A DNA stretch of 64,000 nucleotides from a virus: IMG/VR virus record IMGVR_UViG_3300045988_175036, positions 32,001-96,000 of that record. The stretch is one strand, 5' to 3'. This document shows, piece after piece, positions 3,001 through 59,933 of this stretch. The position numbers were made by a program, and so were the translations under genes. Numbering within the stretch: position 1 is the first letter of the stretch; every line of letters starts with the position of its first letter. The notes under the pieces were generated by a model, which saw only the letters and a program-made list of their open reading frames with translations, ran no database searches and was not told the DNA's origin.

Positions 3001-4713
3001 TTCAAAGAACTTCGTGCGAACTACAATGCTCAAGTCAAGTCTCTTGAAGAAGAAATTAAACTCCAAGAGAAACTGCGCGCGGGTCGTAAGGGACAGCTTG
3101 ATGCGATTAGTAATGAAAAATATACGGATAGTGAAGGAAATCGTAAGACGTTCGCGCAGACCGGAGCAACAAAATATGCACGATATGACCAAAGTCTAAA
3201 TCGTATTATTATTGATTGGGATGCTATTGATATGATTACTGATGATGACCTTGGTTCTGCTGTCGAGGCTTATGTCAGTCGGTTAGAAGAACTTCAAGAC
3301 CAATTTGAAACAACAGATGAAACAATTGAAGATATGAAAGATACTCTTGATGAGTTACGCAAAAGTCAAATGTCTGATTATCTTGATTTTGAACAAAGTG
3401 TCTATGACGCTCTTGTAAATGCTCAACAGAAGCTTATTGACGAGTATCAATCTCTATCTGATAGTATTGCTGATTCAAATTCTAAAATTTTGGAAAATCT
3501 TCAAGAAAGTATTGATTTAGAGCGTCAAATTCGAGATAATACAAAAACAGAAGAAGATATCAATGAGAAAGAAGCTCGTTTAGCTTTCTTGCGACGTGAT
3601 ACTTCAAACGCCAACGCTTTAGAAATCAAAAAATTGGAAGAGGAATTGAGCGACGCTAGGGAAGATTATTCTGATAGTTTAGTTGACCAACAGCTTGAAC
3701 GCCTTACTCAACAAAATCAAGATGCACAAGAAGCACGTGAAAAGCAAATTGAACTTATGCAAGCTCAACTTGATTATGCTTCTGAGAATGGCGAATTCTG
3801 GAATAGAGCATATGAATTGATAAATGAAGGCTTCGCGGCAGATGGTTCTCTCAATCAAGCAGCTCAATTATGGGAACTCCTCAAAGCTGATGAAGGCTGG
3901 AATGGTCTAAGCAAATTTGGCCAGCTGAATTGGCAAGAAGAAATTTCTAAGGCGATTATCGCTGCCAGCCAAGGCTATGCTAACTGGAACATGTATAAAG
4001 CTGAACAAGTGGACAAGTCTTTGGTTCTACCAGATGGAACTCTATTGACTTATGATGGGAAGCAATGGAAAGATAGTAATGGCAATGTTTATAATGGAAT
4101 TGATTTTGATTCTAATAAAAATCAATTTACCTATGGTTCGATTGATTATACTACACCACCAACACCAGGAGGGGGCAGTACCGGTTCATCCAGTGGAGCC
4201 GAGAAGAAAGAAATTTCTGTTGGCAGCACATTCAATGCCACTGGTGCTCCTATCTATCCATATCCGGGCGGCTCGGCTCAGCGGCAATATTTTGCTAATG
4301 ACCCTTATTATGTAGCAATTGGTGAATCTGGCGATTATTGGCTTGCTCGTTGGCATGGAGCTTCTTCTGGCTCAACTGGTTGGTTCAAGAAAACAGATGT
4401 AAAAGCATATAGGACTGGTGGCTTAGCTGATTTCACCGGGCCCGCTTGGCTTGATGGAACAAAATCTCATCCAGAATTAGTTCTCAATGCTAAAGATACT
4501 CAAAACTTCCTCATTCTCAGGGATATTTTGAGTTCTGCTGTCAAAAATGCTGGAACTTCAAATAATGGCGGAGATAATTATTATGATATAAACATTTCTG
4601 TTGATGAAATTGCTTCTGATTATGATGTTGACCAACTCGCGCGCCGTGTCAAGGAACAAATTGTAGAAGACAGCATTTATCGTAATGTCAACACAATAAG
4701 TTTTATCAGATAA
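1..4713 (+). CDS. tail tape measure protein (5' end outside window)
   Basis: Frame is open from base 1. Over 1560 aa with a long coiled-coil-like Q/E/A/L-rich body and a G/S linker (GSGYSGSSSGGGGGGGSSS). C-terminal TGPAWLDGTKSHPELVLN-type motif. Followed by Dit/Tal-like genes. Confidence 0.8.
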   Translation: MNDLTVGTTEWKNALLDVNNQVLELLDKYPQLASYLTSENGVLGISEEGIQKATDIAQEQARRAQALSVTSQYAETTNQRRIAQKAYQQNFWSYDQYTGNVITNPEAAKAFSNYLKENPDMTAEDFQTLAGGAGEELSKLADITGLTVNQMADLVDITRSYNKDMVAYGLQEENYRNALGVLAGDVSSNKRWSMVTQMFNLDETASEIDAARDKLDTTISEMARDLKDQGYTSIMDLTGSDATYRQVYEAVTGQSSEGVDIDSIKDYLAQFQVLNGQVEEAIPILNKLTSMKNQGLADEIAGRIAGGTGLTRAQAEKPLTKADLQEMASQMGYANDDEMAKAFGFDDWTALFNQWSQDAASIASQFEEKEATAANVIGQNQVEKASSLMGDKDFQTYSKYLEQLATLYAKAGVNGAQAVDLFQSSLEALISNNPQYEKEIKDIIGMTDLSDYDSVEAAISDIKELIPGVGDELNNFETALIQLGKATKKVNLKTTMSDLTSMLDLADEISSRSRSEGITQDELEQIVSSGAADYSDFMFTGQEFIPVTSTMDDLAEAVRANTQAAIENTLALLKQAISEGEYVEEMFNQEESWKGISDEQKNRILSGEASATLDANVIRDVLQLDKSASTEEVMSKYRAYMPDYLNLADNRSQAENYQSYMDQAAAWNTDAQNLLLQGNTDALDDIVNARELSGTVEKLTDDYEANTENGEANSDMMKTQGVRYTENEKKIKKLCEGIEDVKDAFDKGTEALANGETPADDYWQALSKIESKGRQVFGENFTQDFIQQNADLISQLTEGGEVGEQAFISLQQKISEATQQAVEDLTYFDTNLQQVRSALDGLDGVKAEFKVNGTADVSQLVQQLILAGNTAAEAARIVESLTGSTVTYTVDWQWVTLPTSLAMSSTYAGLEKAGASGGFTSVKIPKVIQAVGTKNNYSGSGYSGSSSGGGGGGGSSSKDTVWENPYDKLYNLTEQINEALRQREKLEREYDRILERRGSTFKELRANYNAQVKSLEEEIKLQEKLRAGRKGQLDAISNEKYTDSEGNRKTFAQTGATKYARYDQSLNRIIIDWDAIDMITDDDLGSAVEAYVSRLEELQDQFETTDETIEDMKDTLDELRKSQMSDYLDFEQSVYDALVNAQQKLIDEYQSLSDSIADSNSKILENLQESIDLERQIRDNTKTEEDINEKEARLAFLRRDTSNANALEIKKLEEELSDAREDYSDSLVDQQLERLTQQNQDAQEAREKQIELMQAQLDYASENGEFWNRAYELINEGFAADGSLNQAAQLWELLKADEGWNGLSKFGQLNWQEEISKAIIAASQGYANWNMYKAEQVDKSLVLPDGTLLTYDGKQWKDSNGNVYNGIDFDSNKNQFTYGSIDYTTPPTPGGGSTGSSSGAEKKEISVGSTFNATGAPIYPYPGGSAQRQYFANDPYYVAIGESGDYWLARWHGASSGSTGWFKKTDVKAYRTGGLADFTGPAWLDGTKSHPELVLNAKDTQNFLILRDILSSAVKNAGTSNNGGDNYYDINISVDEIASDYDVDQLARRVKEQIVEDSIYRNVNTISFIR

Positions 4714-53839: not shown

Positions 53840-54737
53840 GTTGCTACGAAAATATGGTGCGCATCAAGATAAAATCCAAGAATTTGTTGGAAGATTTCCA
53901 AATGGTGTTGAAGCACTAGACTTTCTTGAAGAAATTGGCCCTGAAGCGATTGCTGGTAATTATAGTCCATGGCTTGAGGCATTATACTGGGGTTACCGAA
54001 TGCTACCCTGGACCACCAAAGAAAAAGAGAAATACTGTGAAGTTTTGAATATTGATAGTTCTTCTAGCGTCTATGAAAGTTATGATGTAGAAGAAAGTGA
54101 AAAAGTTATTCATTCTGATCACATTTATTTGAGCGGAAACATTGATAACTGTAGTAATATTAGAAATAGTAATTACGTTGCTTCTAGTGCTACAGTTGAA
54201 GGAAGTGACGGTGTCCTAAAGTCAGAATATATTGTGAATAGTAGTCTAGTTGATACTGGAATGGACATTCAAAGTTCAAAAGAAATTTATAAAGCATCAC
54301 ATGTGAAGAAAAGTCAGAAGTGCGCGCGAGTCGATAGTATTGAGAATTGCGTCGGAATTTTCAGTTCTTCTGGATGTGAAGAGGTCTATTACTCTTCTTT
54401 TATGAAGAATTGTCATCATTGTCTTTTCTGTGATGATATTGAGGATGCTTCTTTTAGAATCTTCAACCAACCAGTGCCTGAGAAGGATTTCTTCGTAATT
54501 CTTTCGATGGTTGAGAGCTATTTTGATAACAAGCTTGAACCTTTGATTGAAACTACAGTAAATGACGAATTTTATTTTGGCCTTGATTGGCATGTTTCGA
54601 CGCACTTTACAAAGATTTACAGAAGCCTGTCGCAGGAGGTTTTCAATCAACTTTATAGACTACCTGGTTATAATGACTGGCTGATGTATCAGATTACATT
54701 GAATACTCTGAGTTTTCGAGATTTGAAAAATAGCTAA
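53823..54737 (+). CDS. hypothetical protein (Cys/Ser-rich repeat region)
   Basis: ATG 53823 follows AAGGAG. Repetitive S/N/V-rich middle section with CHHCLFC. Confidence 0.55.
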   Translation: MYLTVELLRKYGAHQDKIQEFVGRFPNGVEALDFLEEIGPEAIAGNYSPWLEALYWGYRMLPWTTKEKEKYCEVLNIDSSSSVYESYDVEESEKVIHSDHIYLSGNIDNCSNIRNSNYVASSATVEGSDGVLKSEYIVNSSLVDTGMDIQSSKEIYKASHVKKSQKCARVDSIENCVGIFSSSGCEEVYYSSFMKNCHHCLFCDDIEDASFRIFNQPVPEKDFFVILSMVESYFDNKLEPLIETTVNDEFYFGLDWHVSTHFTKIYRSLSQEVFNQLYRLPGYNDWLMYQITLNTLSFRDLKNS

Positions 54738-54751
54738 ATTTCGAGTATAAT
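54723..54751 (+). promoter_or_regulatory. promoter (TTGAAA-N17-TATAAT, followed by ATTTATACAAA box)
   Basis: -35 at 54723-54728, -10 at 54746-54751. Drives the first RNA segment of the island. Confidence 0.6.
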
Positions 54752-54785
54752 ATTTATACAAAATGGTTGAGGAAAGGAAAAAGAA

Positions 54786-54920
54786 ATGACTTATCATTGG
54801 AAGACAGAAGTAGCAATTCTTGAAAATCGCATCCATCTTCTTGAACAGCGTGGAGATAACGTGCCAATTGTCTCAAAGTTGAAGCGACGACTAAGAAAGC
54901 TATTATCTAGCTCTTATTGA
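54786..54920 (+). CDS. possible 44 aa ORF (or 5' part of the downstream structured RNA)
   Basis: ATG follows GAGGAAAGGAAA. Encodes MTYHWKTEVAILENRIHLLEQRGDNVPIVSKLKRRLRKLLSSSY. Too short for the ORF track. Confidence 0.3.
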   Translation: MTYHWKTEVAILENRIHLLEQRGDNVPIVSKLKRRLRKLLSSSY

Positions 54921-55544
54921 GCTATTTGGCGCACGACAGAAACTTACCGTGAATGTCTGAAGTGGCCTCAGTTGGGAAGGCTTACCAGCTTTATAAAAAC
55001 CGAGCAATCAAGACAAAGTATTAGCTACACTTTGAGGAAGCAAAGAGGTGGGCGGGAGTCGGCTCTCCCGTAGCTAGAAACCGATTACAGGGTTAAGCGC
55101 AAGACGCTTAGGCCAAGCTATGATGTCATATTTCCGGGGCAATTTCGGTAGTATGACGGAGCTTTTGTCAAGGGTTAGGAGATTTCCACAGATTGCCTAG
55201 GGGTCTACCTCGTAGGAGACTACCGAAAGAAAATCTCCATCTTTATCCTGCCTTAGCACAACGGTAGTGCAACCGGTTTATGCCCGGCATACGGCTCCAG
55301 ATTAGGGCGCGATCTCGGTTCGAATCCGAGGGGCAGGACCAAAGGTATCCAAACTACCTTAATCGTTTGGTGAGGACTCAAGTTACTAAAGTTAGGTCAG
55401 CTTGACATCCAACAGAGACGACCTACACAGGTGAGACAGGTGAGAATGACGGCTTAGTCCTTTCTTGAATAAACAGAACCTGACCCGTTTTGGCGCCAAG
55501 GGTGAACGCTGCTTGAAGGTAAAGAAAGGCAATAAATTTTATAT
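54921..55544 (+). ncRNA. large structured RNA candidate A (~620 nt, contains an internal cloverleaf)
   Basis: No ORF in any frame and visibly higher GC than its flanks. Helices: TAGCTAC/GTAGCTA, CGGGAG/CTCCCG, TAAGCG/CGCTTA, GGAGATTT (55178-85)/AAATCTCC (55231-38), AGGACT/AGTCCT. Promoter at 54723. Ends at tRNA-Asn. Confidence 0.55.
55247..55341 (+). tRNA. tRNA-like cloverleaf with 25 nt extra arm, anticodon-loop UUUAUGC (UAU), CCA encoded
   Basis: Acceptor CCTGCCT/GGGCAGG, D arm GCAC-AACGGTA-GTGC, T arm CTCGG-TTCGAAT-CCGAG, then A-CCA. The anticodon stem has only 4 bp plus an A-C mismatch. The long variable region folds poorly. Confidence 0.45.
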
Positions 55545-55621
55545 GGGAGCATAGCTCAGTTGGTTAGAGCGCATGACTGTTAATCATGATGTCGAAGGTT
55601 CAAGTCCTTCTGTTCCCGCCA
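55545..55621 (+). tRNA. tRNA-Asn (GTT)
   Basis: Canonical cloverleaf: GGGAGCA/TGTTCCC acceptor, CATGA-CTGTTAA-TCATG anticodon arm, GAAGG-TTCAAGT-CCTTC T arm, G-CCA end. Confidence 0.9.
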
Positions 55622-55906
55622 AATGATGGCGAGTAGTGCGAATAGAAAAGATAAGAACGAAATAGTACCTTTTATGGTGGATAAACCTATTATTCACTTA
55701 TTGAATCTATTGGAGTCACGCACGGCTCCGCTTGCTATCATTACCAACGGATAAAACTTGTTGTGAGCAAACTTACAAGTTACCTTTTTGACCTCACAAA
55801 CAACTATGCAAGCATATCTTACGCGCAAACTAGATATGACTCCCTCTGGGAGAAAGGTGATTGCGCGGCCGGTTAGCGCTCCTGTCTAAGTTCAAAGCGC
55901 GTTATA
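55622..55906 (+). ncRNA. structured spacer RNA candidate B (~285 nt)
   Basis: ORF-free. Helices include GTTGTGAG/CTCACAAC and ACTTGT/ACAAGT. Lies between tRNA-Asn and a cloverleaf. Confidence 0.35.
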
Positions 55907-55973
55907 TCCCCTTTTAGTGTAATGGTTAGCACAGCAATTGAGGGCAAGAGTGGTTCGATCCCACAGAGGGGAG
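55907..55973 (+). tRNA. tRNA-like element lacking a normal anticodon arm (pseudo-tRNA or mimic)
   Basis: Acceptor TCCCCTT/GAGGGGA, D arm GTGT-AATGGTTA-GCAC, T arm GTGG-TTCGATC-CCAC. Only 15 nt lie between D and T arms, forming UUG-AGGG-CAA. Confidence 0.4.
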
Positions 55974-56053
55974 TCAAAGATAAAATTATCTTTTCTACAC
56001 GGAGAAACTATTGATTCCGAAAACTATCCAATACAAATTGAAAGGAAATTTTT

Positions 56054-56314
56054 ATGGAAAAGATTTTTGAACTCTGTAAAGAGCGTGATATCAGGTGTTA
56101 TTTCAGTTATTGGAAGCTCGACGATTCTATTCATTTTGCTTTCACTAGAACATTTGCTGGCCAAGATTGTAAATTTATACAGGTCGTTCCGATCAAGGAT
56201 ATTAATAATAATTCTCATGTTATCGGACAGTACATTGCAGAACTTATTGAAGACAAGCTGTCGGATGAGAATTGTAGAAAAATGATTCTCGACAGAATTG
56301 AAAAGCTTCTTTGA
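56054..56314 (+). CDS. hypothetical protein (86 aa) inside the RNA island
   Basis: ATG follows AAAGGAAA. Protein-like composition. Sits between two cloverleaves. Confidence 0.45.
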   Translation: MEKIFELCKERDIRCYFSYWKLDDSIHFAFTRTFAGQDCKFIQVVPIKDINNNSHVIGQYIAELIEDKLSDENCRKMILDRIEKLL

Positions 56315-56387
56315 AATCTATTTTTATAATAAGAAAAATAGGTACACTACTTCTTTTATGTTTCGTAGTAGCTGGATTTATAAATAT

Positions 56388-56463
56388 CCTCTATTGGTGT
56401 AATGGTAGCACACTTCCCGTCAAGGAAGAGGGGTCGGTTCGATTCGATATCCTGCATAGAGGA
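56388..56463 (+). tRNA. aberrant tRNA-Asp-like cloverleaf (GUC in a 6 or 8 nt loop, irregular T arm)
   Basis: Acceptor CCTCTAT/ATAGAGG, D arm GTGT-AATGGTA-GCAC, CTTCC-CGTCAA-GGAAG. The T region GTCG-GTTCGATT-CGAT has 7 extra nt before the acceptor 3' strand. Confidence 0.35.
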
Positions 56464-56650
56464 CGGCTTGACACAGCCGGAGTGTTATCTCTGGCATACG
56501 GATTAGCGTATGCAAAGCATTTGTCTTCGGATGGTAAAATGCGAGAGAAGTCATCCCCTTGAACTTCTCACTACATACATCCCCAGCGGTTGTTATGCTG
56601 AGACCGATGGCGCGACGGTCGTTTATAATATCGCGCCATTTGTCTAAAAT
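56464..56650 (+). ncRNA. hairpin-rich spacer C
   Basis: Hairpins CGGCT/AGCCG, GCATACG/CGTATGC, GAGAAGT/ACTTCTC and ATGGCGCGA/TCGCGCCAT. No credible ORF. Confidence 0.35.
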
Positions 56651-56686
56651 GCGGGTGTAGTATAATGGTTATTATGTCTGCCTTCC

Positions 56687-57150
56687 TTCTAAACTTAATG
56701 CGTTAGATATATATGGAGCAATTATCAACTCAATTTAAAGGCGATGTGACTGAACTTTTAGTTAGTGCATATTTACTAAAATTAGGTTATGTAGTATCTA
56801 AACCTTTAACCCAAGATAGTAAATATGATTTAATTGTAGATATTAACCATAAGTTAATTCGTATTCAGGTTAAAACTGCAAGACTAAATGATCGGACCAT
56901 TGGCAAAAGTATTAAGTTTAATTGTAGAAGTACCACAAACAATGTAAGAGAATGCAAACAGCGATATTATTCGCCAGAAGATGTAGATTATTTTGCAACA
57001 TATTGGGATAATGTAGTATATTTAATCCCAGTTACTGAATGTAGTGCTGAGAAAATTTTATGGATAGATAAGCCTACATATAAAAACAGTTGTTTTGCAA
57101 ATGATTATCTGGCAGAGGAGGTATTACAACGCATTTAAGCATTGGAAGGG
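56687..57150 (+). mobile_element. 464 nt endonuclease-carrying intervening sequence in the tRNA-Gly anticodon loop
   Basis: Inserted after C36. Only 26 nt upstream and 12 nt downstream are outside the ORF and its stop codon. The ends pair: CCTTCC (56681-86) with GGAAGG (57144-49), and CTTAATGCGTT (56694-704) with AACGCATTTAAG (57128-39). Confidence 0.7.
56713..57138 (+). CDS. PD-(D/E)XK homing endonuclease (I-Ssp6803I-like)
   Basis: GDVTELLVSAYLLKLGYVVSKPLTQDSKYDLIVD...IRIQVKT matches the E...G..V..P...YDLIVD...QVK pattern of the tRNA-intron endonuclease family (from memory). Located inside a tRNA anticodon loop. Confidence 0.65.
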   Translation: MEQLSTQFKGDVTELLVSAYLLKLGYVVSKPLTQDSKYDLIVDINHKLIRIQVKTARLNDRTIGKSIKFNCRSTTNNVRECKQRYYSPEDVDYFATYWDNVVYLIPVTECSAEKILWIDKPTYKNSCFANDYLAEEVLQRI

Positions 57151-57273
57151 AAGCAGAAGATGGGGCTTCGATTGCCCTCACTCGCTCCACCGCCCCATGG
57201 GAAGTTTGCCTCCAATAAGTCTCATGACCACTACTAGATTGCACTAGTTGACTGAATAAAGGTGGTTTTATAT

Positions 57274-57350
57274 GCACTTGTAGCTCAGTTGGTAGTAGCA
57301 ATTGCCTTTTAAGCAATGGGTCGGGCATTCGAGTTGCCCCAAGTGCACCA
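57274..57350 (+). tRNA. tRNA-Lys (TTT)
   Basis: GCACTTG/CAAGTGC acceptor, ATTGC-CTTTTAA-GCAAT anticodon arm, GGGCA-TTCGAGT-TGCCC T arm, A-CCA end. Confidence 0.9.
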
Positions 57351-57430
57351 CTTTATTTGGAATCAATAGCTTGTCCACCTTTGGGCGACCCGTAATAGCC
57401 GGACATTTGAAAATTTCTTCTCGTAAATGT

Positions 57431-57459
57431 TTGAAATTTTTCTGATTTTTTGATATAAT
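57431..57459 (+). promoter_or_regulatory. promoter (TTGAAA-N17-TGaTATAAT, followed by ATTTACAGAAA box)
   Basis: -35 at 57431-57436, -10 at 57454-57459. Confidence 0.65.
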
Positions 57460-57485
57460 ATTTACAGAAAGTGAGGGAAACGAAA

Positions 57486-57662
57486 ATGGAAACTGAAACT
57501 CCGTGGAAGCCCGAAGTAAAGAAAATGTCTCCCGAACAACTTGAGAAGTGGACGGCGCTCCGTAAAAAGTGTCAAGTCTTTCCTTCTCGAAAACCATATT
57601 CGCGCAAAATCAAACATAAAAATCGAGAAAAAGAAAAAGAAAAAGAAGAAAACGAAATTTGA
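57486..57662 (+). CDS. small basic hypothetical protein (58 aa)
   Basis: ATG 57486 follows GTGAGGGAAA. K/R/E-rich C-terminus. Confidence 0.45.
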   Translation: METETPWKPEVKKMSPEQLEKWTALRKKCQVFPSRKPYSRKIKHKNREKEKEKEENEI

Positions 57663-57687
57663 AAAACTTCTAAAATTTTGGTATAAT
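57659..57687 (+). promoter_or_regulatory. promoter (TTGAAA-N17-TGgTATAAT, followed by ATTTATACAAG box)
   Basis: -35 at 57659-57664, -10 at 57682-57687. No protein gene for about 1.6 kb downstream. Confidence 0.65.
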
Positions 57688-57704
57688 ATTTATACAAGAT
57701 GAGA

Positions 57705-57746
57705 GAGAGAGGAACTGGTCTTTTCCTTTCTACCAGTTCCTCTCTC
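57705..57746 (+). other. 15 bp perfect hairpin at the 5' end of the promoter-proximal RNA
   Basis: GAGAGAGGAACTGGT (57705-19) pairs with ACCAGTTCCTCTCTC (57732-46). No T-run follows, so it is not a terminator. Confidence 0.7.
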
Positions 57747-57778
57747 AGAAAGTCCTAATGTGGCTTACTTGAAAACTA

Positions 57779-57852
57779 TCCGATGTAGTTCAACTGGTTA
57801 GAACACCGCATTGATAAAGCGGAGCTGTCGGTTTGAGATCCGGCCTTCGGGT
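57779..57852 (+). tRNA. probable tRNA-Ile (GAT) with 8 nt T loop and mismatches
   Basis: Acceptor TCCGATG/CTTCGGG (6/7 paired), D arm GTTC-AACTGGTTA-GAAC, CCGCA-TTGATAA-AGCGG (A-A at 31:39), T arm GTCGG-TTTGAGAT-CCGGC. No CCA encoded. Confidence 0.5.
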
Positions 57853-58248
57853 AGTTGGTAAGCAGTCCCAAGCCTGCATAAACACAGAGGGAGACTAATA
57901 GCGGTATTACAGTGGCCAATGTAATATCCAAAATTTCGAGACAGGCAAGTCTTCAGGCAGTAGATGTCTGATAAAACAACGACGGCGAAGGAGTCGCGAC
58001 CTTCGGAGGAGCCGAGATAAACCTACGGGGAACCGCCATCGGAGAAAAGGAATTTATTAGTCAAATCAGTTTCGTGGTTCTGGGACTCAAAACCACCTCG
58101 CGCAGTTCTTACGGCGCAATATAAATAGGATGGGCGCTATCTGACATGGCGTGACGTTCAGAAGTTTCGATGCGTGGGCTTACCTATAAAACTCATGCTG
58201 GGTCTTTGGAGCCTTTTACCTCCTGTGTGAAACAAAAGGCTCGTATAT
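57853..58248 (+). ncRNA. large structured RNA candidate D (~400 nt)
   Basis: ORF-free and GC-enriched. Contains the GTGGTT/AACCAC hairpin. Bounded by the Ile-like tRNA and tRNA-Leu, in the transcription unit of the 57659 promoter. Confidence 0.45.
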
Positions 58249-58334
58249 GCAAGTGTGGTGGAAATGGCATACACATCTGATTCAAGCTCAGATGCCCACT
58301 GGGATTAAGGGTTCGACTCCCTTCACTTGTACCA
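58249..58334 (+). tRNA. tRNA-Leu (CAA), type II
   Basis: GCAAGTG/CACTTGT acceptor, 3 bp D stem, TCTGA-TTCAAGC-TCAGA anticodon arm, extra arm CCC-ACT-GGG, T arm AAGGG-TTCGACT-CCCTT, A-CCA end. Confidence 0.85.
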
Positions 58335-59282
58335 GAAATTCGTGTCCCGCTAAGCTCTATAATGATTGTGGCGAGGCTAAGGCGTTGGCAGATAAGGGGC
58401 AACCGCACGAATTAGAATATTGCGCAGGTCGTCTAACAGTAGGACGCCAGACTCATTATCTGGAGACAACGTGCAACTCGTTCGTGCGCAACCATTCGCT
58501 TTGGCGAAACTCTCGTAGAGGATGGATTTTACGGTTCAACTACCACCGGCTTCCGAGCCCGACCGCTATGGCTGACAACGAAGATATGTGGCTTTGTCAT
58601 TTGCCGAGAGTATAATAAATAAAAACGAAAGCAAACCGTTTATTTGTTCCTTGAAAATAAAATATCTTAGAACTCGATGACAAACATTCTGTGACTAGGA
58701 ATGTCGAGGCGTTTTGAAAAGGGCGGCAGACAACGAACAAGGATACTTGTGGATACTGACCGGTGCGCGTGACGTGAGTTGCGTGCCAGAGAGGATGGAC
58801 TCCCAACCCTAAGAGGCGGCATCGAGATTAACGCGAGTAAAGGTAGGACGCGCGTCGCTGGCGTAATAGAGGCTTTCAAGATAATTGAGAGCTGAATCCT
58901 AATCTCCCTTAGTTGGTGACTGTGGGTAAATCATTTGATTAGGAAATAACCACAAGCCAGTTTGTTGTGAAGCGAAGAAATTCGTGTATAAGACGTGTAT
59001 GTGGCCTCTGAGTAGCCAAAGACAAGCACAATAATGATTATTGATAATAAAAATCAAGAACTTGCTGAATGGCTGGTGAAAGGTTCTGGTAATCAATCCA
59101 GAAGAGACTACGCGCACGAAGGTGCGGCTATGGGAAGTATGCGCGGGACGCTGCGTATGCTCAGCCCCATGGTGCTCTTGACTGAATATACTTGAAGTTA
59201 GTTTTCGGTAGGTTGAAGAACCCATAGATATTTTATTTTCAGGGAACAAATCCCTTTTGACGGAAAGGAACGTCAAAATTTT
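58335..59282 (+). ncRNA. large structured RNA candidate E (~950 nt, possibly two RNAs)
   Basis: Only short overlapping ORFs without an RBS, and about 50 percent GC by eye. Helices: AATTCGTG (58337-44)/CACGAATT (58406-13), TTCGC-TTTG-GCGAA, CGCAC-GAAG-GTGCG. Ends with hairpins AGGGA/TCCCT and TTGACG/CGTCAA plus a T-run. Confidence 0.5.
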
Positions 59283-59305
59283 GAAATGATAGGAGAGGAA
59301 CTATT

Positions 59306-59596
59306 ATGGCAAGATTTTATAGCGATATTACAAACAAGCTCTACGATAGCATGGATGACCTTGAAGAGGCTGAAAAGAAGATTATCGCAAAACAAGAAGA
59401 GAAAAGAGTGGCAGAACAGAAGCGTGCAGACGAGCGCAAAGTTCGCGCACAGGAAATTGATGAACTGCAAAAGACTTATGTAGAGGCACGAAAGGCGTAT
59501 ACAGAAGCTCTTGAGAAATTCTGTAATGATTACGGAACTTTTCACACCTCCATTTCTTCTGATAATCTTTTCGATTTTCTTTGGAGTTGGATGTAA
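59306..59596 (+). CDS. hypothetical coiled-coil protein
   Basis: RBS AGGAGAGG, followed by a terminator. Confidence 0.6.
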   Translation: MARFYSDITNKLYDSMDDLEEAEKKIIAKQEEKRVAEQKRADERKVRAQEIDELQKTYVEARKAYTEALEKFCNDYGTFHTSISSDNLFDFLWSWM

Positions 59597-59603
59597 TAGG
59601 AAC

Positions 59604-59630
59604 GCGCCCTTGACTGGGCGCTTTCTTTTT
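59604..59630 (+). terminator. rho-independent terminator
   Basis: GCGCCC-TTGACT-GGGCGC stem-loop, then TTTCTTTTT. Confidence 0.75.
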
Positions 59631-59660
59631 ATCAAAATAGAAATATAAAGGAGAAAACGA

Positions 59661-59861
59661 ATGACGCTTTATTTCGACAATGGATATGAGCCGAGGCGGC
59701 CTATTGGTCATCCTAGCACTAAGGAAAGTGCGTATCAACTGGTTTACAAGTTTTTAGAGGAGCACAACTATAAGGCCCCCTATACAAGAGAATGGACAAA
59801 TGACATCAATGAGACTTGGATTGATGTTGGAAGCCACACAGAATTCTTTATTTGGTGCTAA
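59661..59861 (+). CDS. hypothetical protein
   Basis: RBS AAAGGAG. Confidence 0.55.
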   Translation: MTLYFDNGYEPRRPIGHPSTKESAYQLVYKFLEEHNYKAPYTREWTNDINETWIDVGSHTEFFIWC

Positions 59862-59933
59862 TTTATCAAGATTATTTGGCGCGCGACTACTTAGGGATAG
59901 AAAGAAAAATATATCCCAGAAAAGGAGAATAGA

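What the first reader, a model, noticed from the sequence alone, without database searches (positions are those of the whole stretch)
57659..59282. 1.6 kb promoter-driven unit without protein genes: hairpin leader, Ile-like tRNA, ~400 nt RNA, tRNA-Leu, ~950 nt RNA
Seen:
- Promoter at 57659-57687.
- A 15 bp perfect hairpin at 57705-57746.
- tRNA-like 57779-57852, an ORF-free GC-rich 57853-58248, tRNA-Leu(CAA) 58249-58334, then 58335-59282.
- That last segment has the long-range pair 58337-44/58406-13, several tetraloop hairpins and terminal hairpins with a T-run.
- The six-frame ORFs here (58193-59635) overlap each other and the tRNAs, lack an RBS and have odd composition.

Inference: one or two further large non-coding RNAs. 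The 57694-58248 span is close to the roughly 0.6 kb I recall for ROOL, and the 3' segment is longer than any bacterial RNA class I can assign by eye.
Basis: partly seen in the sequence, partly recalled or inferred. Interest (0 to 1): 0.75.

Follow-up and report, generated by a model that had tools for sequence, protein, structure and literature searches.

The report
Twister ribozyme carrying a tRNA, plus ROOL
This protein-free stretch of a gut phage is one transcription unit that contains a known giant RNA (ROOL), two tRNAs, and an undescribed ~0.5 kb RNA that starts with a self-cutting twister ribozyme with a tRNA-shaped domain built into one stem.

Summary

- **ROOL:** it lies at 58649-59242 (Rfam 285.9 bits, full length), inside the "950 nt RNA", not in 57694-58248.
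- **The 3' segment is composite:**
- **The "Ile-like tRNA" sits inside a complete type-P1 twister ribozyme (57748-57899).**
  - Every highly conserved twister nucleotide is present.
  - P1, P4, the base of P3 and pseudoknot T1 covary across 20 distinct homologues.
  - The predicted cut is U57756^A57757, which would remove the hairpin leader.
  - The cloverleaf is a 93-nt extension of stem P3.
  - The cloverleaf's anticodon and T-loop drift or are deleted among relatives, while the ribozyme core is almost invariant.
- **The downstream RNA (57892-58248):** 13 helices, 17 pairs with compensatory changes, no Rfam family.
- **Distribution:** the module was found only in one lineage of ~100-120 kb phage contigs from metagenomes; the labelled ones are human gut.

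ROOL is already known. The tRNA-bearing twister fused to a new structured RNA is a new variant. Self-cleavage and function are inferred, not shown.

The parts
57659..57687 (+). Sigma-70-type promoter (TTGAAA, 17-nt spacer, TG-extended TATAAT). The transcription start is inferred at about 57694.
   Evidence: Conserved in all related loci.
57705..57746 (+). Leader hairpin: 15 perfect pairs and a 12-nt loop. It ends 1-4 nt before twister P1 and may be the optional P0 stem of twisters. It would be removed by the predicted cleavage.
   Evidence: The B and C types keep the pairing through two compensatory changes, CUGGU/ACCAG to CAGGA/UCCUG.
57748..57768 (+). Twister 5' part. P1 5' strand 57748-57754 (AGUC 57751-54 pairs in this copy). 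Junction C57755. Predicted scissile bond U57756^A57757. P2 5' strand UGUG 57759-62. T2 strand GC 57763-64. P3 base UUAC 57765-68.
   Evidence: Mapped onto the Rfam twister-P1 consensus. Pair counts.
57769..57861 (+). P3 extension of the twister. Linker. Helix AACUA 57774-78 with UAGUU 57852-56. tRNA-derived cloverleaf 57779-57852 (anticodon GAU, 8-nt non-canonical T-loop UUUGAGAU, invariant U-U mismatch in the acceptor stem). P3 base 3' strand GUAA 57858-61.
   Evidence: About 30-fold more variable than the ribozyme core.
57862..57899 (+). Twister 3' part. P4 GCAG 57862-65 with CUGC 57874-77. Loop L4 UCCCAAGC 57866-73, where CCC 57867-69 forms T1 and GC 57872-73 forms T2. AUAAA 57878-82. P2 3' strand CACA 57883-86. 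GAGGG 57887-91. Junction A57892. P1 3' strand GACU 57893-96 (extending to 57899).
   Evidence: (sub-threshold twister-P3 hit, 22.8 bits).
57892..58248 (+). Conserved structured RNA domain of no known family; 13 helices were scored. In window coordinates: H1 57903-11/57920-28; H2 57938-42/57949-53; H3 57954-59/57965-70; H4 57980-86/57993-98; long-range helix 58011-16/58038-43; 58049-54/58068-73 with an inner helix 58056-58/58064-66; 58074-79/58091-96; 58100-06/58111-17; 58141-45/58156-61 (two scored segments); 58172-78/58192-98; terminal hairpin 58209-17/58234-42; and a possible closing helix 57893-96/58201-04 that reuses the P1 3' strand.
   Evidence: No Rfam match at E<=10. No ORF.
58249..58334 (+). 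tRNA-Leu(CAA), with a long variable arm.
   Evidence: 50.8 bits.
58335..58415 (+). 81-nt element closed by the 8-bp stem 58337-44/58406-13; predicted to fold as a four-way junction. Unassigned.
   Evidence: Present only in some relatives.
58422..58490 (+). Degenerate tRNA-Met-like gene (anticodon CAU, T-loop UGCAACU).
   Evidence: 43.7 bits. ARAGORN calls tRNA-Met(CAT) at the same place in relatives.
58491..58648 (+). Spacer upstream of ROOL. It is optional: relatives carry either this 158-nt version or a 63-nt one. Unassigned.
58649..59242 (+). ROOL RNA, full length (Rfam RF03087, model positions 1-574).
   Evidence: 285.9 bits against a threshold of 99.1. Found in 10 of the 11 related loci scanned.
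59241..59282 (+). Two hairpins (59241-55 and 59256-77) followed by AUUUUG: a weak terminator-like end of the unit. The ribosome-binding site and ATG of the next gene follow at 59306.
   Evidence: The scan listed the second hairpin only on the minus strand.

Best explanation
The unit is a phage operon of non-coding RNAs, read from one strong promoter and cut into separate RNAs.

**Order of elements (shown from sequence)**
1. A 63-nt leader with a 15-bp hairpin.
2. A complete type-P1 twister self-cleaving ribozyme whose P3 stem is prolonged by a tRNA-derived cloverleaf.
3. A ~355-nt multi-helix RNA of no known family.
4. tRNA-Leu(CAA).
5. An 81-nt stem-closed element.
6. A degenerate tRNA-Met-like gene.
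7. A spacer.
8. A full-length ROOL RNA.
9. A weak terminator.

**Processing (inferred)**
- The twister cuts itself between U57756 and A57757 while the RNA is being made.
- This discards the leader hairpin as a fragment with a 2',3'-cyclic phosphate.
- It leaves a ~490-nt RNA (57757-58248) whose 5'-OH end is buried in the compact ribozyme fold.
- RNase P cleavage at the 5' end of tRNA-Leu sets that RNA's 3' end.
- Processing of the two downstream tRNAs releases the remaining pieces; the transcript's weak terminator lies just past ROOL's 3' end.

**The cloverleaf in P3 (more likely than not)** is a structural, tRNA-mimicking domain and no longer a decoding tRNA.

**Unknown:** what the ~490-nt RNA and ROOL do for the phage.
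For: **ROOL and the tRNAs**
- ROOL scores 285.9 bits against a threshold of 99.1, full length.
- The tRNAs are called; the promoter.

**Twister identity**
- Read against the Rfam twister-P1 consensus ccuuUAAcgCcGCC[P3]GcCGGUCCCAAGCCCGggUAAAgGcgGAGGGaagg, the window reads AGUC-C-UAA-UGUG-GC-[UUAC...GUAA]-GCA-GUCCCAAGCC-UGC-AUAAA-CACA-GAGGG-A-GACU.
- Every upper-case (highly conserved) consensus position is present, except that the third base of GCC is U, which here opens P3.
- The core motif occurs once in 64 kb, against 0.06 expected by chance.

**Twister covariation**
- On 20 distinct homologues, 89.3% of cells pair, against 34-40% when the partners are slid.
- 18 of 52 pairs carry changes on both sides; shuffles give a mean of 7.1, and 0 of 500 reach the observed value.
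- P1 exists in three unrelated complementary versions: AGUC/GACU, AUGGAUU/AAUCCAU and GGGUAUG/CAUAUCC.
- P4 covaries: GCAG/CUGC, GCGG/CCGC and ACGG/CCGU.
- Pseudoknot T1 covaries: C-G to U-A.

**Conservation pattern**
- Mean pairwise difference among 18 A-type copies is 0.005-0.006 in the ribozyme core.
- It is 0.154 in the cloverleaf and 0.04-0.05 in the promoter and leader.

**The cloverleaf as mimic**
- The anticodon is GAU, GGU, or sits in a 6- or 8-nt loop in different relatives.
- The T-arm is deleted in L010/L148, and the T-loop is non-canonical in the window copy.
- The acceptor stem has no free end. It continues into covarying helices.

**The downstream domain**
- 79 pairs in 13 helices, 94.6% paired against 35-41% slid.
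- 17 pairs carry double changes; 0 of 500 shuffles reach this.

**Not coding:** no ORF is conserved.

**Constant module:** the leader-twister-domain module is present in all 34 loci that carry it, while the downstream cassettes are mosaic.

**Literature**
- ROOL and GOLLD lie near tRNA islands in phages (PMC5737381, PMC12286853).
- Ribozymes placed in cis with gut-phage tRNAs are thought to process them (PMC10879173).
- Bacterial twisters have been proposed to process polycistronic transcripts (PMC6765202).
Against: - No Rfam twister model reaches its threshold. The best is twister-P3 at 22.8 bits against 39.9, so the identification rests on my mapping plus covariation.
- The homologues fall into only three or four lineages. 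The compensatory changes are therefore few independent events.
- In this window's type, P1 has only 4 Watson-Crick pairs, and one unpaired nucleotide on each side of the core (C57755, A57892) that the consensus lacks.
- The minimum-free-energy fold prefers GCUUAC/GUAAGC. That helix would sequester T2 and half of P4.
- There are no expression or cleavage data.
- Some relatives keep a canonical T-loop and a GAU anticodon, so a working tRNA-Ile is not excluded there.
- The function of the 355-nt domain is unknown.
Confidence: 0.7

Rival explanations
1. The cloverleaf is a working tRNA-Ile(GAU). The twister would then be a cis-acting tRNA-maturation device, comparable to the theta ribozymes of gut phages. 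It would trim the 5' leader, and RNase P and a 3' nuclease would then excise the tRNA, splitting the ribozyme.
For: - ARAGORN and Rfam both call it a tRNA.
- The D-arm and anticodon stem are well kept.
- Several relatives have a canonical GGTTCRAATCC T-loop and a GAU anticodon.
- There is a precedent for ribozyme-tRNA pairs in gut phages (PMC10879173).
Against: - The anticodon changes to GGU or is lost among copies that are more than 90% identical.
- The T-arm is deleted in L010/L148 and is non-canonical in the window copy.
- There is an invariant U-U mismatch and a U1-G72 wobble in the acceptor stem.
- There is no discriminator or CCA; instead the acceptor stem continues into covarying pairs.
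- The twister cut lies 22 nt upstream of the tRNA 5' end, so it does not make a mature end.
- The cloverleaf is about 30 times more variable than the ribozyme.
Confidence: 0.25
2. The twister-like motif no longer cleaves. It would serve only as a compact structural module, a double-pseudoknot scaffold, at the 5' end of the large RNA.
For: - The Rfam score is below threshold.
- There are extra junction nucleotides next to P1, and P1 is short in the A-type.
Against: - All catalytic and highly conserved nucleotides are retained, including the U-A site and the G after P2.
- The core is nearly invariant.
- P1 complementarity is maintained through complete sequence replacement. That is hard to explain if the P1 5' strand were not needed.
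Confidence: 0.08
3. One reading: 57694-58248 is ROOL, and 58335-59282 is a single unknown RNA of about 950 nt.
For: Only the length of the first span (~0.55 kb) resembles ROOL.
Against: - The Rfam ROOL model matches 58649-59242 end to end.
- It gives no hit in 57690-58660 at E<=10.
- The 3' segment contains a tRNA-like gene and optional cassettes.
Confidence: 0.01
4. The region 57900-58248 is merely a transcribed spacer or decayed tRNA remnants, with no function of its own.
For: - The region around it is a mosaic of tRNA cassettes and homing-endonuclease insertions.
- Single-sequence folding energy is not exceptional (z = -1.09).
Against: - It is present in every locus that has the twister, and always in the same place.
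- 17 pairs show compensatory changes in 13 helices.
- It has long invariant single-stranded stretches.
- No tRNA-like Rfam hits occur inside it.
- The B and C types keep the 3' half while replacing the 5' half.
Confidence: 0.1

Closest known systems
Type-P1 twister self-cleaving ribozyme (Rfam RF03160, clan CL00120)
   Same: - The same order of P1, the UAA site, P2, T2, P3, P4/L4, UAAA, P2', GAGGG and P1'.
- Identical conserved nucleotides.
- The double pseudoknot T1/T2 is supported by covariation.
   Different: - P3, normally a short hairpin, carries a 93-nt insert that folds as a tRNA cloverleaf on a 9-bp extension.
- One extra nucleotide on each side between P1 and the core in the A and B types.
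- It is fused to a 355-500-nt structured RNA.
- It scores below the Rfam threshold because of the insert.
Theta (minimal HDV-like) ribozymes next to tRNAs in gut phages (PMC10879173)
   Same: - A small self-cleaving ribozyme placed in cis with a tRNA-type element in mammalian-gut tailed phages.
- A proposed role in processing.
   Different: - A different ribozyme class: no HDV-like Rfam hit here.
- Theta ribozymes sit downstream and trim the 3' trailer.
- Here the tRNA-like element is inside the ribozyme, and the cut is 22 nt upstream of it.
ROOL RNA (Rfam RF03087)
   Same: - 58649-59242 is a full-length member.
- It lies in a phage next to tRNAs, as described for the family (PMC5737381, PMC12286853).
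   Different: Nothing unusual in ROOL itself. Here it is the last gene of an operon headed by a twister. One relative (L011) has lost most of ROOL but keeps the twister module.
GOLLD RNA with tRNAs in its linker region (PMC12286853)
   Same: A large phage non-coding RNA that has a tRNA embedded in its own sequence and lies in a tRNA island.
   Different: - No sequence or structure match to GOLLD.
- The embedded element here is inside a ribozyme stem and appears to be losing its tRNA identity.

Membership tests
Twister ribozyme, type P1 | Highly conserved nucleotides: UAA at the cleavage site, GC of T2, loop GUCCCAAGCC, UAAA, GAGGG. | tested here: met
   The window sequence against the Rfam consensus printed: all present and in the right order. 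The core motif is unique in the window.
Twister ribozyme, type P1 | Helices P1, P2 and P4 and pseudoknots T1 and T2 can form and are kept in relatives. | tested here: met
   P1 has 5 pairs with double changes, P4 has 2, T1 has 1. P2 and T2 are invariant and 100% paired. Slid controls give 34-40% paired.
Twister ribozyme, type P1 | Covariance-model score at or above Rfam's gathering threshold. | tested here: not met
   The best clan hit is twister-P3 at 22.8 bits against 39.9, covering only the 3' half. This is attributed to the 93-nt insert in P3. A normal twister in L144 scores 67.9 against 67.2.
Twister ribozyme, type P1 | Site-specific self-cleavage that yields a 2',3'-cyclic phosphate and a 5'-OH. 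| not testable with these tools
   Needs in-vitro transcription or 5'-OH end mapping.
ROOL RNA | Full-length match to the RF03087 covariance model above threshold. | tested here: met
   285.9 bits against 99.1, model positions 1-574. 272-286 bits in 10 relatives.
ROOL RNA | Phage or prophage context next to tRNA genes. | tested here: met
   Phage replication genes in the window. Five ARAGORN tRNAs plus one Rfam-only tRNA nearby. The family's context is described in PMC5737381.
ROOL RNA | Homo-octameric nanocage. | not testable with these tools
   A cryo-EM property reported in PMC12286853.
tRNA (decoding), for 57779-57852 | Cloverleaf recognised by tRNA detectors. | tested here: met
   ARAGORN Ile-GAT. 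Rfam 44.7 bits against 29.
tRNA (decoding), for 57779-57852 | Canonical 7-nt T-loop (TTCRANY). | tested here: not met
   The window has the 8-nt loop UUUGAGAU. The arm is deleted in L010/L148. It is canonical in only some relatives.
tRNA (decoding), for 57779-57852 | Anticodon conserved among close orthologues. | tested here: not met
   GAU, GGU, a 6-nt loop (L151) and an 8-nt loop (C type) are all found among closely related copies.
tRNA (decoding), for 57779-57852 | Free acceptor end with a discriminator base (and CCA). | tested here: not met
   The acceptor stem continues directly into a 5-bp and a 4-5-bp helix that covary. No CCA is encoded.
Theta / HDV-like ribozyme | HDV-like nested double-pseudoknot fold adjacent to a tRNA. 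| tested here: not met
   No HDV-family Rfam hit in 54500-59700 at E<=1.

The most novel reading that the evidence does not exclude
RNA 57757-58248 (twister core, tRNA mimic and 13-helix domain) could be a new class of large phage non-coding RNA.
- The ribozyme would act as a maturation switch rather than only as a trimming device.
- After the leader is cut off, the freed P1 3' strand (GACU 57893-96) would re-pair with GGUC 58201-04 and close the domain into its active fold.
- The tRNA-shaped arm would recruit host tRNA-binding factors.
- The RNA would act together with the co-transcribed ROOL cage.
Probability: 0.25. Interest if true: 0.85.

Novelty: new variant of a known kind. Interest (0 to 1): 0.64.

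Why it matters
- **Open questions it touches.** What twister ribozymes do in bacteria and phages is still unsettled (PMC6765202). What ROOL does is also unknown, although its nanocage structure is solved (PMC12286853).
- **A concrete case to test.** Here a twister sits at a defined place in a non-coding RNA operon, wrapped around a tRNA-shaped domain, heading a new ~0.5 kb structured RNA and co-transcribed with ROOL.
- **The prediction.** A 5'-OH end at 57757 is directly testable.
- **Link to recent work.** It extends the recent observation that gut phages pair ribozymes with tRNAs (PMC10879173) to a second ribozyme class and a different geometry.
- **A caution for annotation.** Standard covariance-model scans miss ribozymes that carry large inserts. 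Other "tRNAs" in phage genomes may likewise be parts of larger RNAs.

Tried and rejected
**Searches for a known family or close relative**
- Rfam at E<=10 on 57690-58660 found nothing for 57932-58248. The weak rli22, sau-5971 and microRNA hits on the leader hairpin are noise.
- blastn against 50,697 phage records hit only tRNA-Leu. tblastn with the 560-aa neighbouring protein found nothing.

**Searches for the module outside this lineage**
- Twister-specific patterns in IMG/VR returned the same lineage only.
- A generic pattern for type-P1 twisters with an 85-115-nt P3 found one real twister with a large non-tRNA P3 (L143), two ordinary twisters, and chance hits.
- A T-loop followed within 12-40 nt by the twister loop motif gave 58 hits outside the lineage, and none is a twister.
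- A pattern from the domain gave only chance hits in GTDB genomes and one chance viral hit.
- The twister pattern gave no hit in GTDB genomes, so no host was identified.
- A PhoH-guided locus search returned only close relatives.
- A relative whose downstream protein is 65% identical (L280) has no twister module.

**Tests of alternative readings**
- Complementarity of 11 nt or more between the RNA and the rest of the window is at chance level.
- Protein coding is rejected: no ORFs on the plus strand of the domain, and the mechanical ORFs are broken in relatives.
- My first reading of the weak hit as a P3-permuted twister, with P1 = UAAUA/UAUUA, was rejected. L010 shows that 57903-57928 is an independent hairpin, and the true 5' half lies upstream of the tRNA.

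**Literature**
- Searches of the held library found no report of a tRNA inside a twister. The original twister paper is not held.
Full report
**What is at the coordinates**

The window region 57400-59900 was read directly.
- Promoter: a sigma-70-type site at 57659-57687 (TTGAAA, 17-nt spacer, TG-extended TATAAT, 11 of 12 matches).
- Hairpin: a perfect 15-bp hairpin at 57705-57746.
- tRNAs: tRNA-Ile(GAT) at 57778-57853 and tRNA-Leu(CAA) at 58249-58334 (ARAGORN; Rfam 44.7 and 50.8 bits).
- Long-range pair: 58337-44/58406-13 is AATTCGTG/CACGAATT.
- End of the unit: two terminal hairpins followed by a short T run at 59241-59282.
- Composition: G+C is 0.47-0.53 across the unit against 0.30-0.40 in the flanks.

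**ROOL is in the other segment**

- Rfam places a full-length ROOL RNA (RF03087, model positions 1-574) at 58649-59242. It scores 285.9 bits against a gathering score of 99.1.
- Nothing ROOL-like is found in 57690-58660 even at E<=10.
- Rfam also finds a third tRNA-type gene at 58422-58490 (43.7 bits).
- In relatives, ARAGORN calls tRNA-Met(CAT) at the same place.
  - an 81-nt stem-closed element;
  - a degenerate tRNA-Met-like gene;
  - a 158-nt spacer that some relatives replace with a 63-nt one;
  - ROOL;
  - a weak terminator.
- ROOL next to tRNA islands in phages is the described context of the family (PMC5737381). ROOL is known to form an octameric nanocage of unknown function (PMC12286853). 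This part is already known.

**Related sequences**

- No deposited phage genome is similar beyond the tRNA-Leu.
- Homologous loci came from several sources:
  - the 96-aa protein encoded just downstream;
  - DNA patterns in IMG/VR;
  - DNA patterns in metagenomes (three records are labelled human gut).
- In all, 34 loci carry the module, on contigs of up to ~120 kb.
- The window encodes ribonucleotide reductase, RecJ, a DnaB-like helicase, primase, topoisomerase II, ClpP, PhoH and a ligase. It is a large phage.
- No host was found in GTDB genomes.

**The 'Ile-like tRNA' lies inside a twister ribozyme**

How it was found:
- Rfam gave only a sub-threshold hit to the P3-permuted twister model at 57855-57931 (22.8 bits against 39.9).
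- My first attempt to fit that permuted architecture failed. Locus L010 shows four to five compensatory changes that define 57903-57928 as an independent hairpin.
- The missing 5' half is upstream of the tRNA.

The mapping:
- The Rfam type-P1 consensus, obtained from a genuine hit in another phage contig, is ccuuUAAcgCcGCC[P3]GcCGGUCCCAAGCCCGggUAAAgGcgGAGGGaagg.
- Against it the window reads AGUC-C-UAA-UGUG-GC-[UUAC ... GUAA]-GCA-GUCCCAAGCC-UGC-AUAAA-CACA-GAGGG-A-GACU.
- All highly conserved nucleotides are present and in order.
- The predicted scissile bond is U57756^A57757.
- The core motif occurs once in the 64-kb window, against 0.06 expected by chance.

Covariation on an alignment of 20 distinct sequences (A5):
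- The full model, including both pseudoknots, is 89.3% paired against 34-40% when the partners are slid.
- 18 of 52 pairs carry changes on both sides. Shuffles give a mean of 7.1, and 0 of 500 reach the observed value (smaller sets).
- P1 occurs in three unrelated but complementary versions: AGUC/GACU, AUGGAUU/AAUCCAU and GGGUAUG/CAUAUCC.
- P4 covaries: GCAG/CUGC, GCGG/CCGC and ACGG/CCGU.
- T1 covaries: C-G to U-A.
- P2 and T2 are invariant.

Conservation among 18 copies of the window's type:
- The ribozyme core differs by 0.005-0.006 per site.
- The promoter and leader differ by 0.04-0.05 per site.
- The cloverleaf differs by 0.154 per site.

Twister architecture, with P0, P3 and P5 as optional stems, is described in PMC6154101. 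The leader hairpin ends 1-4 nt before P1 and may correspond to the optional P0. That last point rests on my recollection of the family diagram and was not tested.

**The cloverleaf is an extension of P3, and probably a tRNA mimic**

- After T2 the chain forms UUAC/GUAA (UUAUC/GAUAA in the C type).
- It then forms AACUA/UAGUU, which covaries (GCCA/UGGC and ACCA/UGGU in relatives).
- It then runs straight into the acceptor stem.
- There is no free acceptor end, no discriminator base and no CCA.
- Across close relatives the anticodon loop reads GAU, GGU, a 6-nt loop, or an 8-nt loop.
- The T-arm is deleted in L010/L148. The window copy has a non-canonical 8-nt T-loop.
- The C type has a damaged acceptor 3' strand.
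- The D-arm, the stems and an invariant U-U mismatch in the acceptor stem are kept.
- This is the pattern expected of a structure under selection for shape, not of a decoding tRNA. Copies with a canonical T-loop and GAU could still be functional, so I keep that as a rival at 0.25.

**The downstream RNA is real and unclassified**

- From 57892 to 58248 there is no plus-strand ORF of 30 codons and no Rfam match.
- The mechanical ORFs elsewhere in the unit are broken in relatives.
- On 17 distinct sequences (A6), a model of 13 helices and 79 pairs is 94.6% paired against 35-41% slid. It has 17 pairs with double changes, and 0 of 500 shuffles reach this.
- Two other types exist. The B type (L004, L018) and the C type (L283-L285) replace the 5' part, and the C type has a variable (GCU)n run. 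Both keep the 3' half with compensatory changes.
- The four nucleotides of the P1 3' strand can also pair with 58201-04 in all 17 sequences. A helix swap after cleavage is therefore possible, but this is speculation.

**How it most likely works**

Shown:
- One promoter, no internal promoter-like site on the plus strand between 57687 and 59019 (one weak 9/12 match lies inside ROOL at 59019-59048), and a single terminator-like end.
- The leader-twister-domain module is constant, while the downstream cassettes are mosaic. They include homing-endonuclease insertions and, in L011, loss of most of ROOL.

Inferred:
- The twister cleaves co-transcriptionally and removes the 63-nt leader.
- The ~490-nt product keeps the whole ribozyme fold at a 5'-OH end.
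- RNase P at tRNA-Leu defines its 3' end.
- Processing of the downstream tRNAs releases the remaining pieces, including the stretch that carries ROOL.

The closest concept in the literature is the theta (HDV-like) ribozymes placed in cis with tRNAs in gut phages (PMC10879173). A processing role in polycistronic transcripts has also been suggested for bacterial twisters (PMC6765202). tRNAs embedded in the GOLLD linker are a further parallel (PMC12286853).

**How unusual it is**

- Three pattern scans of IMG/VR were designed to find other twisters with a tRNA or a tRNA-sized insert in P3. They found only this lineage, plus one twister with a large non-tRNA P3.
- Text searches of the held literature found no description of such an arrangement. 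The original twister paper could not be read.
- These scans use exact patterns, so divergent examples would be missed.

**Verdict**

- ROOL and the tRNAs are ordinary for such a phage.
- The twister with a tRNA-shaped P3 fused to a new structured RNA is a new variant of a known ribozyme class attached to an unclassified RNA.
- The identification is well supported in silico. It is unproven biochemically, and the function is unknown.

Noticed in passing
window 55115-55341: A drum RNA (RF02958, 56.9 bits) ends 4 nt before an unusual 95-nt tRNA. That tRNA has a long variable arm, anticodon UAU and an encoded CCA. The same drum-tRNA pair recurs in the relatives that cover that region. The function of drum is unknown (PMC5737381).
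   Followed up: partly
L011 5652-5826 (equivalent to window 58203-59131): One near-identical phage contig lacks tRNA-Leu(86 nt), the 81-nt element, the tRNA-Met-like gene and all but the last ~110 nt of ROOL. It keeps the twister module. ROOL therefore seems dispensable, unless this is an assembly artefact.
   Followed up: partly
L006 3766-4374 (also L010); L287 3485-4297: Homing-endonuclease genes are inserted between the non-coding RNA cassettes in some relatives. One is a 202-aa ORF with an HNH-type motif (HHIDGD...CPNCH) between the domain and tRNA-Leu. Others are GIY-YIG genes elsewhere in the region. This fits the mosaic make-up of the region.
   Followed up: partly
L283 ~3636-3656, L284 ~3655-3669: The C-type version of the structured domain contains a (GCU)n run whose copy number differs between otherwise ~95% identical contigs.
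   Followed up: no
window 58335-58415: An 81-nt element between tRNA-Leu and the tRNA-Met-like gene is closed by an 8-9-bp stem and is predicted to fold as a four-way junction, possibly a decayed tRNA. No Rfam hit. It is too conserved among the six loci that have it to test covariation.
   Followed up: partly
window 54723-54751, 57431-57459, 57659-57687: Three near-identical strong promoters (TTGAAA-17-TATAAT) lie in 3 kb. They sit in ~49-nt blocks that are ~81% identical and recur elsewhere in the relatives, so each RNA or small-gene cassette seems to carry its own copy.
   Followed up: no
window 57784 and 57846: A U-U mismatch in the acceptor stem of the embedded cloverleaf is invariant in all 20 distinct sequences, while the anticodon and T-loop vary. 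This suggests a specific structural or recognition role.
   Followed up: no
window 58008 and 58037 (columns 122 and 153 of alignment A6): A lone G-C to A-U covariation in two separate lineages (L007 and L286) lies outside any helix in my model of the domain. It may be a tertiary or pseudoknot contact.
   Followed up: no
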